Numbered from the stretch's first letter, positions 35,941 to 38,376 are shown. The stretch is DNA of 64,000 nt from Nannocystis pusilla (GCF_020073745.1 NZ_JAIRAU010000002.1:81694-145693); one strand, 5' to 3'. Notes: a model not told the origin generated them from the sequence alone. Made by a program: numbers and translations.

Positions 35941-38376
35941 GTGGGATACACTCACGCGGTGTCTTTCGTGCTCGCGCTGGCGCTCGTCCTCCTGTCGGCG
36001 AGCCTTGTCGGGCTGATGGCGCTGCACCGTGAGGCGCTGCGGCGGGTGCTGCTGCGTGCGGTCGACCCGAGACCGCTGGCGCTGTTCCGGATCGCGTTCG
36101 GTTGTTGTCTGCTGGCGACAATGGTCGAGATCGCGCCGCTGCTCGATTATCTATTCTCCGACGAGGGCCTGCTGCCACGCGCCGTGGTGCCGGAGCTCAT
36201 GGGGCGCGGGGCGACGATCGGCTTCGGCGACGGCGTGCGCGAGCCCGCGGGCCCGCGCGACCTGGCGGCGCTGCTCGAGTTCGTGACGAGCGGACGCTGG
36301 TCGCCGCTGTACTTCGGGGACAGCCCGACGGCGGTGCGGCTGCACTTCGCGGCGCTGGTGGTGGCGGCGCTCGGGCTGACCCTGGGCTGGCGCACCCGCG
36401 TCAGCACGATCCTCTGCTGGCTGCTGTACGCCGGGCTGCTGCGCCGCGGGGACGCCCACTGGGGCGGCGAGCAGGTGTTCTGCGCGTTCCTGTTCCTGCT
36501 GATGTGGTCGCGCTGCGGGGCGGCGTTCAGCGTCGACAACTGGCGGCGCTGCCGGGCCCTGCGACGACGTGGCTTTTTGAGCATGTCCTCGGGACCAGGC
36601 GAGGGAGCGGGCCTGGCTCCTTCGCCGGCGGCGCCGCGGGGGCTGGTGGCGATCTACCGCCGGATCCCGGCGTGGCCGCAGGCATTGATCGCCGGCCAGC
36701 TGGCGCTGTGTTACGTGGTCAACGGCTGGGCCAAGTCGGGCCCGACGTGGCGCTCGGGCGACGCGCTGCTGCTGGTGCTGTCGCGCGACACGTATGTCCG
36801 TTGGGACATGTCCGCGGCGATCGCCGCGGTCGGGCCGTGGCCGCTGCGCCTGGCCAGCTGGGGCGTGGCGTGGTGGGAGCGGCTGTTCCCGCTGGTGCTG
36901 GTCGGGCTGGCGCTGCGGGCCGTGGCGCGCAGCGGGGCGCCGGGGCTGCAGGGGGCCGCGAGCGCGGGGGCGCGGCTGTGTTGGGCCGGGATCGCGGTGG
37001 CGGCGGGGCTGGCCGCGTCTGTCCCCCAGGACCTGGTGGAAAAGTCAGGTGATCTCGGGGGGTCGGAGCGGGCGGCGACGCTGGCTGTGGTGGCGGCGAT
37101 CGCCGCGGCGGTGGCGATCGCGGGGCCGCGGGCGGCGGCGGTGGGTCGGCGGCTGGCCGCAGGACCGCTGGCGCCGCGCTGGTGGCTGGGGTTCGGGGCG
37201 CTGTTCCACCTGGCCAACCACGCGCTGCTGGCCGTGGGGGCGTTCGCGCCGGCGACGCTGGCGGCCTACCTGGTGTGCGGGGCGGGCCCGTGGGCGGTGG
37301 CGATGTCGCAGCGAGCGCTGCGCGGGCTGGCGCGCCTGGGCGTACCTGTCCCTGAGCACCTGCGCCGAGAGACAGCCGTCGCGGCGGAGGATCCGTCGCT
37401 GCCGCACCTGCACCGCGACGCGGCAGCGCTGCCGGGGTGGGCGATCGCGGCCGCGGGCGGGTTGGTGCTGGCGGGCGGACTGGTGGGGCTGGCCGCGGGC
37501 GCCGGACCGCGGGCGTGGCACGCGGCCTGGCTGGCCGCAGGGACAGGTCTGACGATCGTCGGCTGGAGGGCCGCGCGGCGCCGTCGCAGCGAGACGACGG
37601 CGCTGGTCGAGCCGTGGGCGCACGGTCCGGCGGGTCGCCTCGCGGCCGGGGGGCTCGTGGCGTACCACGTGGTCGCGCTGCTGGTGTGGCAGCTGCCGGC
37701 GTGGTCGAGCCTGCCGTGGCGCGGGCCGGCGCGGGCGCTGGTCGGGCCGTGGATCGAGCTCAGCTACACCAGCCAGAGGTGGTCGATGTTCGCGCCCAAT
37801 CCTCCGCGCGATCAGATGCTGGTGCGGACGACGGTGGTCGACGCGGCCGGGGTCCGCCACCGCTTCGCCGAGGGGCCGCAGCGCGCGGACGATCTGCCGC
37901 TGCCGCATCCGTGGCACGATCGCTGGCGCAAGATCGGCGACGGCCTGCTCGGGCAGCGCGAGCGCATGTCGCTGTGGCACGTGCGCTACCTGTGCCGCCG
38001 CTGGGCGCTCGAGCACGCGGGCGAGCCGGCCCGCGAGGCGCGGCTCGAGGGGCTGCGCGCGCCGCTGGCTCCGCCCGGCAGCGATCGCCGGGAGCACTTC
38101 GCGGCGCACGTCGAGACGCGGGTGCTGGCCCAGGTGAACTGCGCGGAGGAGCCGTTCGCCCAGCTGGCCCCCGAGGTGCGCGCGCGCCACGGGCTGCCGC
38201 CCGCGCCGCCCGGATCGCTGCGCTTCGTCTGGGCGCCGGAGCGGGCGGCGACGTGGGCCGAACGGCGCACGCGTCGCGATCCGCTGGCGCCCTTGTGGCC
38301 GCTGGCGGCGCTGGGGCTGCTGGCGGCGCTGGCGAGGTGGGCGCGCGAGGATCGGCGGGAGCGCGCCGGCGGGTGA
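35941..38376 (+). CDS. HTTM-domain (vitamin-K-dependent gamma-carboxylase-like) polytopic membrane protein
   Basis: RPLALFRIAFGCCLL...LYAGLLRRGDAHWGGEQVFCAFLFLLMW resembles HTTM domain N-terminal helices. Many TM segments; Ala-rich. Five in-frame palindromic elements. Start could be GTG 35941 or ATG 36016. Confidence 0.7.
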   Translation: MGYTHAVSFVLALALVLLSASLVGLMALHREALRRVLLRAVDPRPLALFRIAFGCCLLATMVEIAPLLDYLFSDEGLLPRAVVPELMGRGATIGFGDGVREPAGPRDLAALLEFVTSGRWSPLYFGDSPTAVRLHFAALVVAALGLTLGWRTRVSTILCWLLYAGLLRRGDAHWGGEQVFCAFLFLLMWSRCGAAFSVDNWRRCRALRRRGFLSMSSGPGEGAGLAPSPAAPRGLVAIYRRIPAWPQALIAGQLALCYVVNGWAKSGPTWRSGDALLLVLSRDTYVRWDMSAAIAAVGPWPLRLASWGVAWWERLFPLVLVGLALRAVARSGAPGLQGAASAGARLCWAGIAVAAGLAASVPQDLVEKSGDLGGSERAATLAVVAAIAAAVAIAGPRAAAVGRRLAAGPLAPRWWLGFGALFHLANHALLAVGAFAPATLAAYLVCGAGPWAVAMSQRALRGLARLGVPVPEHLRRETAVAAEDPSLPHLHRDAAALPGWAIAAAGGLVLAGGLVGLAAGAGPRAWHAAWLAAGTGLTIVGWRAARRRRSETTALVEPWAHGPAGRLAAGGLVAYHVVALLVWQLPAWSSLPWRGPARALVGPWIELSYTSQRWSMFAPNPPRDQMLVRTTVVDAAGVRHRFAEGPQRADDLPLPHPWHDRWRKIGDGLLGQRERMSLWHVRYLCRRWALEHAGEPAREARLEGLRAPLAPPGSDRREHFAAHVETRVLAQVNCAEEPFAQLAPEVRARHGLPPAPPGSLRFVWAPERAATWAERRTRRDPLAPLWPLAALGLLAALARWAREDRRERAGG
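36579..37555. repeat. five TGTCC/GGACA palindromic elements embedded in frame in the HTTM gene
   Basis: GAGCATGTCCTCGGGACCAGG (36579); ATGTCCGTTGGGACATGTCC (36795); CTGTCCCCCAGGACCTGG (37020); CTGTCCCTGAGCACC...AGACAG (37345); GGGACAGGTCTGACG (37540). Confidence 0.6.

What the first reader, a model, noticed from the sequence alone, without database searches (positions are those of the whole stretch)
36579..37555. HTTM gene carries five in-frame palindromic elements; further coding copies elsewhere
The HTTM membrane-protein gene contains five TGTCC/GGACA-type elements in frame (36579, 36795, 37020, 37345, 37540). The membrane protein at 16102-17160 has three (16198, 16612, 17046). The MMPL gene has one (3949), the VWA gene two (8445, 8471) and the M16 partner two (23208, 23860). 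Several supply or overlap candidate start codons through the ACATGTCC core (ATG-TCC is Met-Ser), for example 23209 and 1481. That matters for start-codon annotation in this genome.
Basis: seen in the sequence. Interest (0 to 1): 0.5.

Follow-up and report, generated by a model that had tools for sequence, protein, structure and literature searches.

The report
Palindromic repeats written into coding genes
A short DNA palindrome (GGACATGTCC, arrayed every 14 bases) is very common just downstream of genes in Nannocystis myxobacteria, and it also occurs inside real protein-coding genes through unusual codon choices that tend to be kept across species; only one of the five HTTM copies is a complete palindrome, and the palindrome's ATG looks like the real start codon in only a few genes.

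Summary
The window comes from Nannocystis pusilla (about 74% GC). The motif is real: TGTCC-N4-GGACA with up to 1 mismatch occurs 40 times against 1.6 expected. GGACATGTCC occurs 17 times against 1.7 expected. Half-sites follow a strict 14-bp register. Density is about 6 per kb downstream of gene ends, 0.9 per kb between divergent genes and 0.42 per kb in coding sequence.

The five HTTM sites are exactly the gene's five matches with up to 2 mismatches (0, 1, 1, 2 and 2). That is 5 against 1.4 expected from synonymous-codon shuffles. Only 36795-36813 is a complete element.

Coding copies are not insertions. No site compared with orthologues shows an indel there; the one exception (23210) lies in a stretch that two orthologues lack. 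They are made by rare codons placed where they complete the motif. A T-ending codon precedes GTC-C in 12% of cases against 1.7% elsewhere (p=2.5e-9). Eight of 13 testable loci are conserved across species against 3.8 expected (P=0.012).

The start-codon claim is partly right. ATG 1481 is out of frame and ATG 20395 is a decoy. TTG 1453 is probably a true start and 23209 is unresolved.

The closest analogues are cyanobacterial HIP1 and REP/BIME elements. The function is unknown; a DNA recognition site is my inference.

The parts
35941..38376 (+). HTTM-domain membrane protein gene. The start is uncertain (GTG 35941 or GTG 35959). It is a real, translated ORF.
   Evidence: Pfam HTTM hit at 5.6e-11. 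GC3 is 0.91. Syntenic orthologues exist in 7 Nannocystis genomes and in more distant Nannocystaceae.
36584..36597 (.). HTTM site 1: TGTCCTCGGGACCA, 2 mismatches to TGTCC-N4-GGACA, phase xTG TCC (L-S-M-S-S-G-P). The TGTCC is present only in the window and in N. radixulma.
   Evidence: The other species read ATG CCC or ATG ACC. The surrounding rare codons (CGA CGA CGT, TTG, CCA) are conserved.
36795..36813 (.). HTTM site 2, the only complete element: TGTCCGTTGGGACATGTCC, which is a perfect N4 palindrome plus a perfect decamer. It encodes Y-V-R-W-D-M-S using the rare TAT and CGT codons.
   Evidence: TAT GTC C is kept in 5 of 6 aligned Nannocystis orthologous loci, and in the frameshifted L012 copy over this stretch. 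N. bainbridge has TTC GTG...CTG TCG, which lacks the element. There is no indel.
37020..37033 (.). HTTM site 3: TGTCCCCCAGGACC, 1 mismatch, phase xxT GTC Cnn nnG GAC (S/A-V-P-x-D).
   Evidence: It is conserved in 6 of 6 species. The codon before GTC is TCT (Ser) in the window and GCT (Ala) in the others, so the amino acid changes while the T stays.
37347..37360 (.). HTTM site 4: TGTCCCTGAGCACC, 2 mismatches (P-V-P-E-H).
   Evidence: CCT GTC C is kept in all Nannocystis species. Paraliomyxa encodes the same P-V-P-E-H-L as CCC GTG CCC, without TGTCC.
37532..37545 (.). HTTM site 5: TGGCCGCAGGGACA, 1 mismatch, followed by GGT, giving GGACAGGT. The rare codons GCA, ACA and GGT are used.
   Evidence: It is conserved in 6 of 6 species.
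16199..16208 (.). Coding copy in membrane-protein gene 16102-17160: GGACAGGTCC (G-T-G-P, with rare ACA and GGT codons).
   Evidence: It is identical in 4 species at 76-78% amino-acid identity.
16614..16627 (.). Perfect coding copy TGTCCCGAAGGACA (A-V-P-K-D-M, with rare GCT codon).
   Evidence: It is perfect in all 4 species.
17049..17062 (.). Perfect coding copy TGTCCCGATGGACA (x-V-P-M-D-R).
   Evidence: The preceding codon is CAT, GCT, GCT or TCT (His, Ala, Ala, Ser) in the four species. The amino acid varies but the third-position T does not.
3949..3967 (.). MMPL gene copy: a perfect decamer GGACATGTCC plus the 1-mismatch TGTCCCAGGGGCCA (S-D-M-S-Q-G-P).
   Evidence: The decamer uses only preferred codons (GAC ATG TCC). 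It is conserved as far as the 66%-identical locus L028. A conserved peptide is enough to explain it.
8445..8458 (.). VWA gene copy TGTCCGAAGGGACA (L-S-E-G-T). It is perfect only in this genome.
   Evidence: Orthologues have 1-2 mismatches (GAG instead of GGG). The TGTCC at 8472-8476 is a lone half-site.
23210..23223 (.). Perfect copy TGTCCTTCGGGACA beginning one base after the A of ATG 23209 (M-S-F-G-T). It lies at or near the 5' end of the M16-partner lipoprotein gene.
   Evidence: It sits in a stretch of about 110 nt that is absent from N. pusilla orthologues L019/L020. Candidate starts are 23155, 23209 and 23317.
23860..23869 (.). Coding copy GAACATGTCC (I-E-H-V-R) with three consecutive rare codons, GAA CAT ... 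CGA.
   Evidence: It is identical in 4 species.
1453..1495 (+). 5' end of the LolA-like gene. It contains TTG-TCC within the 1-mismatch element TTGTCCCTGCGGCCA (1453-1467), the decamer GGACATGTCC (1477-1486, read as G-H-V-L) and TGTCCTCGCGGTCA (1482-1495).
   Evidence: The same element pair follows the thioesterase stop codon in 4 species. The frame is open from xTG-TCC. The gene call for RBIL2 starts at the element's ATG.
20391..20409 (.). Intercistronic element AGACATGTCCTTATGGGCA. Its ATG at 20395 opens the longest ORF of the downstream methyltransferase gene but is a decoy start.
   Evidence: Orthologues start at the equivalent of 20722, with a conserved upstream sequence.
58208..58299 (.). 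Three perfect copies spaced 39 nt apart in the linker of the Ser/Thr kinase-WD40 gene (A-V-P-G-D-R, A-V-P-G-D-S, P-V-P-R-D-S).
   Evidence: No orthologue comparison was made.
24629..24647 (.). A typical extragenic array, GGACATGTCCGGAGGGACATGT, starting 2 nt after the M16-partner stop codon, between convergent genes. It is given as a reference for the parent family.
   Evidence: All four species carry arrays at this position, but the sequence and copy number differ.

Best explanation
**What it is.** The in-gene copies are ordinary translated codons that also spell members of a dispersed palindromic repeat family shared by Nannocystis species. The unit is the 10-bp palindrome GGACATGTCC, with half-site GGACA/TGTCC. 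Units are arrayed at a 14-bp period, so the junctions read (A)TGTCC-N4-GGACA(T).

**Where the family lives.** Most copies lie downstream of gene 3' ends, in tandem and convergent intergenic spacers. Their position is kept across species but their sequence and copy number turn over.

**How in-gene copies arise.** They are not insertions. They arise in place, in the two codon phases that cost only one rare codon:
- xxT GTC Cnn nnG GAC Axx, giving x-V-P-x-D
- xTG TCC nnn nGG ACA, giving L/M-S-x-G-T

They occur at protein positions that tolerate those peptides. They tend to be retained across species at the nucleotide level, even where the amino acid changes.

**Shown here.** Over-representation against codon-aware nulls, motif-directed rare-codon use, absence of indels, and cross-species retention.

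**Inferred mechanism.** The palindrome is a recognition site on double-stranded DNA for a symmetric, lineage-specific binding factor. That factor would have a chromosome-level or transcription-unit-end role rather than a gene-specific promoter role. In-gene copies would be the same sites kept by purifying selection.

**Start codons.** In some operon junctions the xTG of xTG-TCC also serves as the start codon of the downstream gene (LolA-like gene; glycosyltransferase in related species). Elsewhere it is an internal Met-Ser or a decoy.
For: **The family is real.**
- N4 matches with up to 1 mismatch: 40 against 1.58 expected. Decamer matches: 17 against 1.66 expected.
- GGACATGT is the most over-represented 8-mer in the window, 28 against 2.4 expected.
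- Half-site distances peak at 9, 5, 14, 19, 23, 28, 33 and 42 nt. GGACA-N4-TGTCC is never seen.
- It is present in all named Nannocystis species sampled and in a distant MAG (L028). It is absent or rare in Paraliomyxa and several other Nannocystaceae loci.

**Location.** Hits per kb are 0.42 in CDS, 5.97 in tandem spacers, 6.41 in convergent spacers and 0.94 in divergent spacers.

**Coding excess against synonymous shuffles.** Exact N4: 8 against 0.20. Up to 1 mismatch: 18 against 2.9. HTTM: 5 against 1.41.

**Motif-directed codon choice.**
- A T-ending codon precedes GTC-C in 12.0% of cases against 1.7% elsewhere (p=2.5e-9).
- ACA follows xGG in 11.9% of cases against 2.6% elsewhere (p=0.0016).

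**Conservation.**
- There are no indels at any compared site.
- HTTM motif codons keep their A/T third base in 3.75 of 4 distant species, against 1.32 of 4 for other A/T-ending codons.
- At 17047 (H/A/A/S) and 37018 (S/A) the amino acid varies but the T is invariant.
- The outgroup encodes P-V-P-E-H-L without TGTCC.
- GAA CAT GTC CGA is kept in 4 species.
- Eight of 13 testable loci are conserved against 3.79 expected, P=0.012.

**DNA site rather than RNA hairpin.**
- A lone decamer, which cannot form a useful hairpin, is itself conserved (23860).
- Mismatched copies show no compensatory or wobble pattern (my reading of the matched sequences listed).
- The loop has no consensus and no strand bias.
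- Fold energies are unremarkable, with z-scores from -0.9 to -3.

**Start codons.**
Against: - The conservation test is only moderately significant (P=0.012) and rests on 13 loci and a home-made gene map.
- Over 14 genes, single half-sites are not clearly more conserved than other rare codons (p=0.06).
- Some coding copies need no special explanation. The MMPL 3949 decamer uses only preferred codons for a conserved D-M-S.
- Some copies are lineage-specific (15409, and 8445 in perfect form).
- At least one copy (23210) lies in a lineage-specific stretch of about 110 nt. The three kinase copies sit in a 39-nt coding repeat. Insertion or duplication therefore contributes in some cases.
- The bias towards gene 3' ends is what an RNA-level element (stabiliser or terminator) would show. 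It could equally reflect mere tolerance of a selfish repeat.
- No binding protein, methylation data or transcript data are available. The DNA-site mechanism is inference.
Confidence: 0.6

Rival explanations
1. RNA-level element. The TGTCC-N4-GGACA units act as hairpins in mRNA. They might stabilise 3' ends, terminate or pause transcription, or occlude the start codon to couple translation within operons. In-gene copies would be internal versions of the same signal.
For: - Density is strongly biased to regions downstream of gene ends (about 6 per kb) and is low in divergent promoter regions (0.94 per kb).
- The hairpin-capable arrangement is the commonest, and the opposite arrangement GGACA-N4-TGTCC is never seen.
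- Extended 6-8 bp stems are common in intergenic copies (ATGTCC...GGACAT).
- In the LolA-like and glycosyltransferase genes the start codon lies in the 5' arm of the stem, with no Shine-Dalgarno sequence visible in the upstream bases shown (my reading).
- The two decamers at 38500 and 38549 can pair with each other (z = -4.5).
Against: - The stem sequence is fixed rather than covarying, and one-mismatch copies are not compensated (my reading of the sequences).
- Fold energies are ordinary for 74% GC sequence.
- No U-tract follows the hairpins (sequences).
- Isolated decamers, which cannot form a hairpin, are abundant and conserved.
- Rfam finds nothing.
Confidence: 0.22
2. Neutral motif-directed drive. 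A sequence-biased process such as biased mismatch repair, short-patch conversion or uptake-sequence-like recombination keeps regenerating the motif everywhere, including in genes. The in-gene copies would have no function.
For: - The coding excess and the codon-context bias are what such a drive would produce.
- Copies accumulate in loops and linkers where the protein is tolerant.
- Some copies are lineage-specific gains (8445 and 15409).
- From my own knowledge, Haemophilus USS and Neisseria DUS show this behaviour.
Against: - The retained positions are A/T third bases, which run against the genome's strong GC3 pressure. GC-biased conversion or VSP-type T:G to C:G repair cannot be the drive.
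- The same sites are kept across species at 75-80% amino-acid identity, rather than being scattered anew.
- The 14-fold enrichment in intergenic sequence and the depletion in divergent spacers are not expected from a uniform drive.
Confidence: 0.12
3. In-frame insertion of a mobile, MITE- or REP-like element into coding sequence. The palindromes would add amino acids to the proteins.
For: - The 23210 copy lies in about 110 nt that are absent from two N. pusilla orthologues.
- The kinase gene has three copies in a 39-nt repeat.
- Intergenic arrays vary by unit duplication: 14-bp and 101-bp tandem arrays and species-specific repeats after the HTTM stop codon.
Against: - No indel is present at any of the five HTTM sites, the three sites in 16102-17160, or sites 23860, 29900, 3949 and 8445 in the codon alignments.
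- Outgroups have the same-length peptide, encoded without the motif.
Confidence: 0.08
4. Chance. Conserved peptides plus codon bias happen to spell the motif, and the HTTM cluster is a coincidence.
For: - The MMPL 3949 decamer needs only preferred codons for a conserved D-M-S and is conserved in the distant locus L028.
- About 3 coding hits with up to 1 mismatch are expected by chance. Nine of the 25 one-mismatch N4 hits in the window (coding and intergenic together) carry the GC-rich GGCCA/TGGCC variant (my count).
Against: - Exact copies: 8 against 0.20 expected. HTTM: 5 against 1.41 expected, reached in 2 of 3000 shuffles.
- Rare codons are used specifically where they complete the motif (p=2.5e-9).
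- The T is invariant where the amino acid varies.
Confidence: 0.05

Closest known systems
HIP1 (Highly Iterated Palindrome 1, GCGATCGC) of cyanobacteria
   Same: HIP1 is a short palindrome that is hyper-abundant relative to expectation (PMC5861425). It occurs inside ORFs as well as between them. It is conserved between genomes beyond background, which has been taken as evidence for selection rather than neutral replenishment. Its function is unknown, and a chromosome or nucleoid role has been proposed (PMC5861425). A link to methyltransferase sites has also been discussed (PMC4390886). Here the corresponding results are a coding excess against codon shuffles, motif-directed codon use and cross-species retention.
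   Different: The sequence is different (GGACATGTCC, with a CATG core rather than GATC) and so is the phylum. Here the density is about 14-fold higher in intergenic than in coding DNA. Copies concentrate downstream of gene 3' ends and form arrays with a strict 14-bp register. Neither methylation nor kb-scale periodicity could be tested.
REP/BIME elements of enterobacteria and pseudomonads
   Same: Both are dispersed extragenic palindromes found after gene 3' ends and between convergent genes. Both are rare in divergent promoter regions, form clusters in alternating orientation, and turn over quickly in copy number between relatives. The properties of REP/BIME elements are from my own knowledge.
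   Different: The core here is much shorter (10-14 nt against 20-40 nt). There is no conserved 5' GTAG. An associated RAYT transposase could not be looked for. REPs are essentially excluded from coding sequence, whereas here coding copies are in excess and conserved.
DNA uptake sequences (Haemophilus USS, Neisseria DUS)
   Same: These are 9-12-nt words at roughly kb density. They are often arranged as inverted pairs downstream of genes. Many copies lie inside genes, in particular reading frames and at tolerant protein positions. This is from my own knowledge.
   Different: USS and DUS are non-palindromic words whose abundance is explained by uptake bias in naturally competent bacteria. No such system is known or testable here. 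The unit here is itself a palindrome with a fixed 14-bp array register.
PadR-family operators (ATGT-N8-ACAT)
   Same: The extended intergenic form ATGTCC-N4-GGACAT is formally ATGT-N8-ACAT, the canonical PadR inverted motif (PMC3506622; flanks).
   Different: Operators are few per genome and lie in promoters. These elements occur about once per 1-2 kb and are depleted in divergent promoter regions. No PadR gene was found among the small ORFs of the window that I scanned. This is a lead only.

Membership tests
HIP-like highly iterated palindrome | A short palindrome many-fold over-represented relative to composition- and codon-aware expectation | tested here: met
   N4 with up to 1 mismatch: 40 against 1.58. 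Decamer: 17 against 1.66. In CDS, exact N4: 8 against 0.20 under synonymous shuffles.
HIP-like highly iterated palindrome | Sites conserved between genomes beyond matched background, inside ORFs | tested here: met
   Eight of 13 coding loci are conserved against 3.79 expected, P=0.012. The T is invariant where the amino acid varies. The sample is small.
HIP-like highly iterated palindrome | Comparable abundance in coding and non-coding DNA | tested here: not met
   0.42 per kb in CDS against about 6 per kb in tandem and convergent spacers.
HIP-like highly iterated palindrome | The core contains the site of an orphan DNA methyltransferase | not testable with these tools
   The core is CATG/ACATGT. 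No methylome or whole-genome gene inventory is available.
REP/BIME | Extragenic location, downstream of genes and between convergent genes, rare in promoter regions | tested here: met
   Tandem 5.97, convergent 6.41 and divergent 0.94 hits per kb.
REP/BIME | Imperfect palindrome of about 20-40 nt with a conserved 5' GTAG-type tetranucleotide | tested here: not met
   The conserved core is 10-14 nt, extended to 16-18 nt at most. The flanks show only A/T continuation of the palindrome and no GTAG.
REP/BIME | A cognate RAYT (Y1 transposase) in the genome | not testable with these tools
   Only 64 kb plus about 20-kb loci are held. None was seen in the proteins scanned.
REP/BIME | Essentially absent from coding sequence | tested here: not met
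   Coding copies are in excess and conserved.
DNA uptake sequence | An over-represented word with coding copies in preferred frames at tolerant positions | tested here: met
   Two of three codon phases are used, encoding V-P-x-D or L/M-S-x-G-T, mostly in loops and linkers.
DNA uptake sequence | Sequence-biased DNA uptake by a competence system | not testable with these tools
Intrinsic (Rho-independent) terminator | A stable GC-rich hairpin followed by a U-tract | tested here: not met
   Hairpins of 5-8 bp fold at -10 to -13 kcal/mol, with z-scores of about -1 to -3. No T-run follows them in the sequences read.
PadR operator | ATGT-N8-10-ACAT inverted repeat | tested here: met
   Intergenic copies are flanked by A at position -1 in 17 of 22 cases and by T at +1 in 18 of 22 cases, giving ATGTCC-N4-GGACAT. 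The consensus is from PMC3506622.
PadR operator | Promoter-proximal location, few sites per genome | tested here: not met
   The elements are depleted in divergent spacers and occur about once per 1-2 kb.

The most novel reading that the evidence does not exclude
Nannocystis genomes may carry a selection-maintained palindromic layer (GGACATGTCC in a 14-bp register). If this window is typical there would be several thousand sites per 12-Mb genome; that figure is an extrapolation. An as yet unknown symmetric DNA-binding factor would read these sites to mark transcription-unit ends and organise the chromosome. The layer would reach into coding sequence, where it constrains codon and even amino-acid choice (V-P-x-D and M-S-x-G-T peptides). 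In some operons it would also provide the start codon. That would make it a myxobacterial counterpart of the unsolved cyanobacterial HIP1 problem, but with a clearer positional logic that makes the function experimentally tractable.
Probability: 0.3. Interest if true: 0.7.

Novelty: new variant of a known kind. Interest (0 to 1): 0.5.

Why it matters
**Annotation.**
- In these 74% GC genomes ATG is scarce between genes, and the element supplies one.
- Longest-ORF rules therefore over-extend genes: 20395 adds 109 codons to the methyltransferase gene.
- Gene callers also disagree at the LolA-like and M16-partner genes. The NCBI protein for the M16 partner starts at 23317 and leaves only six residues before the lipobox cysteine.

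**Codon usage.** Rare codons in Nannocystis genes cannot all be read as neutral or as translational-pausing signals. A measurable share exists to spell a DNA motif.

**Biology.**
- A conserved palindrome family with strict array geometry and a gene-end location implies a dedicated recognition factor.
- I found no description of this family in the literature searches I ran.
- The in-gene copies are the best evidence that the motif itself is under constraint, because their flanks are held in register by the protein alignment.

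Tried and rejected
**Literature.** Searches for Nannocystis plus palindromic, for GGACATGTCC plus bacteria, for REP plus myxobacteria, and for TGTCC/GGACA plus inverted repeat found nothing relevant. The only sequence hit was the p53 response element, whose half-site consensus GGACATGTCC happens to match. I treat that as coincidence.

**Rfam.** A scan of the whole window at gathering thresholds gave no family.

**RNA folding.** Six representative elements gave modest hairpins that are not distinctive in this GC-rich background. 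The one exception is pairing between the two decamers at 38500 and 38549.

**Strand bias and tetraloops.** I looked for strand bias or a tetraloop preference in the 4-nt spacer, oriented by gene direction. There was none.

**Covariation of flanking positions.** I looked for covariation between the flanks, ACA...TGT against ACC...GGT. Mixed forms are common, so there is no clean covariation.

**Synonymous conservation by whole-codon identity.** This was uninformative, because strong codon bias keeps 59% of codons identical anyway. I switched to rare-codon retention and matched control windows.

**Single half-sites over 14 genes.** These were only weakly more conserved than other rare codons (p=0.06).

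**PadR.** I scanned small ORFs in the window for a PadR-type regulator and found none.

**Data-quality points.**
- L012 and L018 carry frameshifts in HTTM, probably from assembly errors. I left them out of the codon statistics.

Full report
**Source and setting**

The window is about 74% GC. The HTTM protein has orthologues in every sampled Nannocystis genome, at 95% identity to N. radixulma. An M16-family protein encoded in the window is 100% identical to an NCBI protein of Nannocystis pusilla (P0001). I built a gene map from a codon log-odds model trained on the window. It covers 87% of the window and agrees with Pfam hits for HTTM, MMPL, VWA, the M16 pair, the kinase-WD40 gene and the LolA-like gene. 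Start codons in that map are approximate.

**What the motif is**

- TGTCC/GGACA occurs 155 times against 106±9 expected.
- The composite forms carry most of the signal. TGTCC-N4-GGACA with up to 1 mismatch occurs 40 times against 1.58 expected. GGACATGTCC with up to 1 mismatch occurs 17 times against 1.66 expected.
- The reverse arrangement GGACA-N4-TGTCC is never seen.
- Over about 215 kb of Nannocystis sequence, half-site distances fall at 9 and 23 nt (TGTCC to GGACA), at 5, 19 and 33 nt (GGACA to TGTCC), and at 14, 28 and 42 nt (same orientation).
- The unit is therefore the 10-bp palindrome GGACATGTCC, repeated with a 14-bp period. The N4 'hairpin' is the junction between neighbouring units.
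- GGACATGT is the most over-represented 8-mer in the window (28 against 2.4). The variant GGACAGGT is second (15 against 2.0).
- Intergenic copies extend the palindrome to ATGTCC-N4-GGACAT. The 4-nt spacer has no consensus and no strand bias.
- The family is abundant in all named Nannocystis species sampled and in one distant Nannocystis MAG (L028). It is absent or rare in the Paraliomyxa locus and in several other Nannocystaceae loci.

**Where it lies**

Hits per kb across the window and seven loci:

| Region class | Hits per kb |
|---|---|
| Coding sequence | 0.42 |
| Spacers between same-direction genes | 5.97 |
| Spacers between convergent genes | 6.41 |
| Spacers between divergent genes | 0.94 |

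Some of the divergent-spacer hits are probably gene miscalls. Orthologous spacers in different species all carry arrays, for example after the HTTM stop codon and after the M16-partner stop codon. The sequence, number and local tandem structure of these arrays differ even between genomes whose proteins are 95% identical. This is a REP-like distribution. It is not the distribution of a promoter operator.

**The HTTM observation**

Their mismatch counts are 2, 0, 1, 2 and 1. Only 36795-36813 is a complete element (TGTCCGTTGGGACATGTCC).

The cluster is not chance:
- 5 matches against 1.41 expected under synonymous shuffling (reached in 2 of 3000 shuffles).
- 3 matches with up to 1 mismatch against 0.33 expected (0 of 3000).
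- 8 five-mers against 2.76 expected (0 of 2000).

HTTM is not unique. Three other genes in the window have equal or higher densities.

**Are the coding copies insertions?**

No, wherever I could test. Codon alignments were made for:
- HTTM, six species
- the membrane-protein gene 16102-17160, four species
- the M16 partner
- gene 28994-30082
- MMPL and VWA

None shows an indel at an element. The copies sit in two codon phases: xxT GTC Cnn nnG GAC Axx (x-V-P-x-D) and xTG TCC nnn nGG ACA (L/M-S-x-G-T). They never sit in the third phase, which would need two rare codons and a cysteine.

There are two partial exceptions.
- The perfect copy at 23210 lies in about 110 nt that two N. pusilla orthologues lack.
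- The three kinase copies are in a 39-nt coding repeat, which I did not compare with orthologues.

**Is the DNA word itself under constraint?**

Several independent lines say yes, with moderate strength.

1. **Excess over codon-aware chance.** Coding copies exceed the synonymous-shuffle null window-wide. Exact N4: 8 against 0.20. Up to 1 mismatch: 18 against 2.9.
2. **Rare codons placed to complete the word.** The codon before GTC-C ends in T in 12.0% of cases, against 1.7% before other G-starting codons (p=2.5e-9). Thr after xGG is ACA in 11.9% of cases, against 2.6% elsewhere (p=0.0016).
3. **Retention in HTTM.** The A/T third bases that complete the motif are kept in 3.75 of 4 distant species. 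Other A/T-ending codons are kept in 1.32 of 4.
4. **Amino acid changes, T stays.** At 17047 the codons are CAT, GCT, GCT and TCT. At 37018 they are TCT and GCT.
5. **Outgroup comparison.** Paraliomyxa encodes the same P-V-P-E-H-L as CCC GTG CCC, without TGTCC.
6. **Three rare codons in a row.** GAA CAT GTC CGA (23860) is identical in four species.
7. **Matched-control test.** The control windows contain a rare codon and are allowed one change per orthologue. Eight of 13 coding loci are conserved against 3.79 expected (P=0.012).

Caveats:
- Single half-sites over 14 genes are only weakly more conserved than other rare codons (p=0.06).
- The MMPL decamer at 3949 needs only preferred codons for a conserved D-M-S.
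- Some copies are lineage-specific (15409, and 8445 in perfect form).

**Start codons**

- **ATG 1481** is out of frame with the ORF ending at 2166.
- **TTG 1453**, 28 nt upstream and inside a 1-mismatch element, is in frame.
  - The same element pair follows the thioesterase stop codon in four species.
  - The frame is open from xTG-TCC: ATG in N. punicea and RBIL2, CTG in N. bainbridge.
  - The product, MS.R.GLF.HVL..., has a proper signal-peptide n-region and h-region for a LolA-like protein.
  - The gene call held for RBIL2 starts at the element's ATG, and that genome has no downstream ATG.
- **A glycosyltransferase gene** in N. punicea and N. bainbridge likewise starts (A/G)TG TCC GCC GGG ACA.
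- **ATG 23209** is in frame, but two other starts compete.
  - ATG 23155 has a GGAGG sequence 7 nt upstream and the ATGA overlap used by L019/L020.
  - The NCBI protein implies 23317, which leaves only MVFVVA before the lipobox cysteine.
- **ATG 20395** opens the longest methyltransferase ORF, but orthology puts the start at 20722.

So the element's ATG is sometimes a likely true start, sometimes a decoy and usually an internal Met-Ser.

**Mechanism**

Shown:
- a sequence-specific family with fixed geometry
- a location at gene ends
- rapid extragenic turnover
- in-gene copies created and kept by codon choice

Inferred: recognition as double-stranded DNA by a symmetric factor. The arguments are these.
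- Lone decamers cannot form a useful hairpin, yet they are abundant and conserved.
- Mismatched copies are not compensated.
- The spacers are unconstrained.
- Fold energies are ordinary.

The main rival is an RNA hairpin role. The bias towards gene 3' ends and the start-codon-in-stem cases favour it. A neutral drive is disfavoured, because the retained bases are A/T against strong GC3 pressure and because the same sites persist across species.

**Comparison with known systems**

The coding-copy behaviour is closest to cyanobacterial HIP1 (PMC5861425, PMC4390886). The extragenic behaviour is closest to REP/BIME elements. The frame-restricted coding copies recall USS and DUS. The extended form matches the PadR consensus ATGT-N8-ACAT (PMC3506622), but in the wrong genomic places. 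It fails at least one defining feature of each of HIP-like palindromes, REP/BIME elements, PadR operators and intrinsic terminators; for uptake sequences the defining feature (biased uptake) could not be tested. I found no description of this family in the literature searches I ran. I therefore class it as a new variant of a known kind, the dispersed short palindromic repeats.

**Verdict**

The finding is of moderate interest. Its main value is as evidence that the Nannocystis palindrome is a constrained DNA word that overlaps the genetic code, and as a practical warning for start-codon annotation.

Noticed in passing
window 2187-2249: A 14-bp tandem array (GGACCTGCTTGATG, 4.5 copies) sits in the junction between the LolA-like and MMPL genes. 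It has the same 14-bp period as the palindrome arrays and a degenerate GGACCTG core. Orthologous junctions in three other species hold only about one unit. The MMPL start implied by orthologue lengths (794-795 aa) falls at the edge of this array.
   Followed up: partly
window 10701-11083: The spacer after the VWA gene holds a 101-bp tandem repeat (1.9 copies, 89% identical). Each unit carries a TGTCGCAAGGGACA element. Denser ACATGT-type copies follow at 11023-11083.
   Followed up: partly
window 40894-47243: A block of five minus-strand ORFs has lower GC (65-70%) and no Pfam hits. It is absent from the syntenic loci of all six other Nannocystis genomes, which suggests a strain-specific island inserted between the ParA/TPR gene and the DUF1552 gene.
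   Followed up: partly
window 30759-33305: An 848-aa protein has major-vault-protein shoulder and Vault_3 repeat domains plus an SPFH/Band 7 domain. It is 93-97% conserved across Nannocystis and looks like a bacterial vault-like protein.
   Followed up: no
window 23155-23320: The M16-partner lipoprotein gene has about 110 extra nucleotides between the ATGA-overlap start and the signal peptide, relative to two N. pusilla orthologues. N. exedens has an unrelated insert of similar size at the same place. The NCBI protein (436 aa) implies a start at 23317, which leaves only six residues before the lipobox cysteine and is probably too short.
   Followed up: yes
window 2635-2647 (MMPL gene): GGACAGGTTGTCC, two half-sites with a 3-nt spacer, encodes D-R-L-S with the rare codons AGG and TTG. 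It is identical in all orthologues, down to the 66%-identical locus L028.
   Followed up: partly
L018 10551-11760: Nine perfect copies of the form ccTGTCCgcggGGACAgg lie at irregular spacing in a low-complexity, possibly coding stretch next to the DUF1552 orthologue in N. exedens. L018 is at the contig end, and its HTTM copy is only 47-75% identical by tblastn segment and is frameshifted, so the assembly there may be unreliable.
   Followed up: no
L025 5517 and L026 5390: The called starts of a family-2 glycosyltransferase gene are ATG and GTG within (A/G)TG TCC GCC GGG ACA. The start codon is therefore the first codon of a palindromic element, giving an M-S-A-G-T N-terminus.
   Followed up: partly
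window 3945-3970 and 36572-36598: The MMPL and HTTM coding copies share about 20 of 26 nucleotides (cTTTTnGnnCATGTCCnnGGGnCCAG) and similar peptides (FFSDMSQGP and FLSMSSGP). This hints at a longer shared unit than the 14-nt core. I counted this by eye and did not test its significance.
   Followed up: no
window 38480-38560: Two copies of tcATGGCGAAAAGGACATGTCC lie 49 nt apart after the HTTM stop codon. A related GGGACATGGCGAAATAGACATGTCC occurs at 20376-20400. The decamer-AAAA-decamer register recurs at separate loci.
   Followed up: partly
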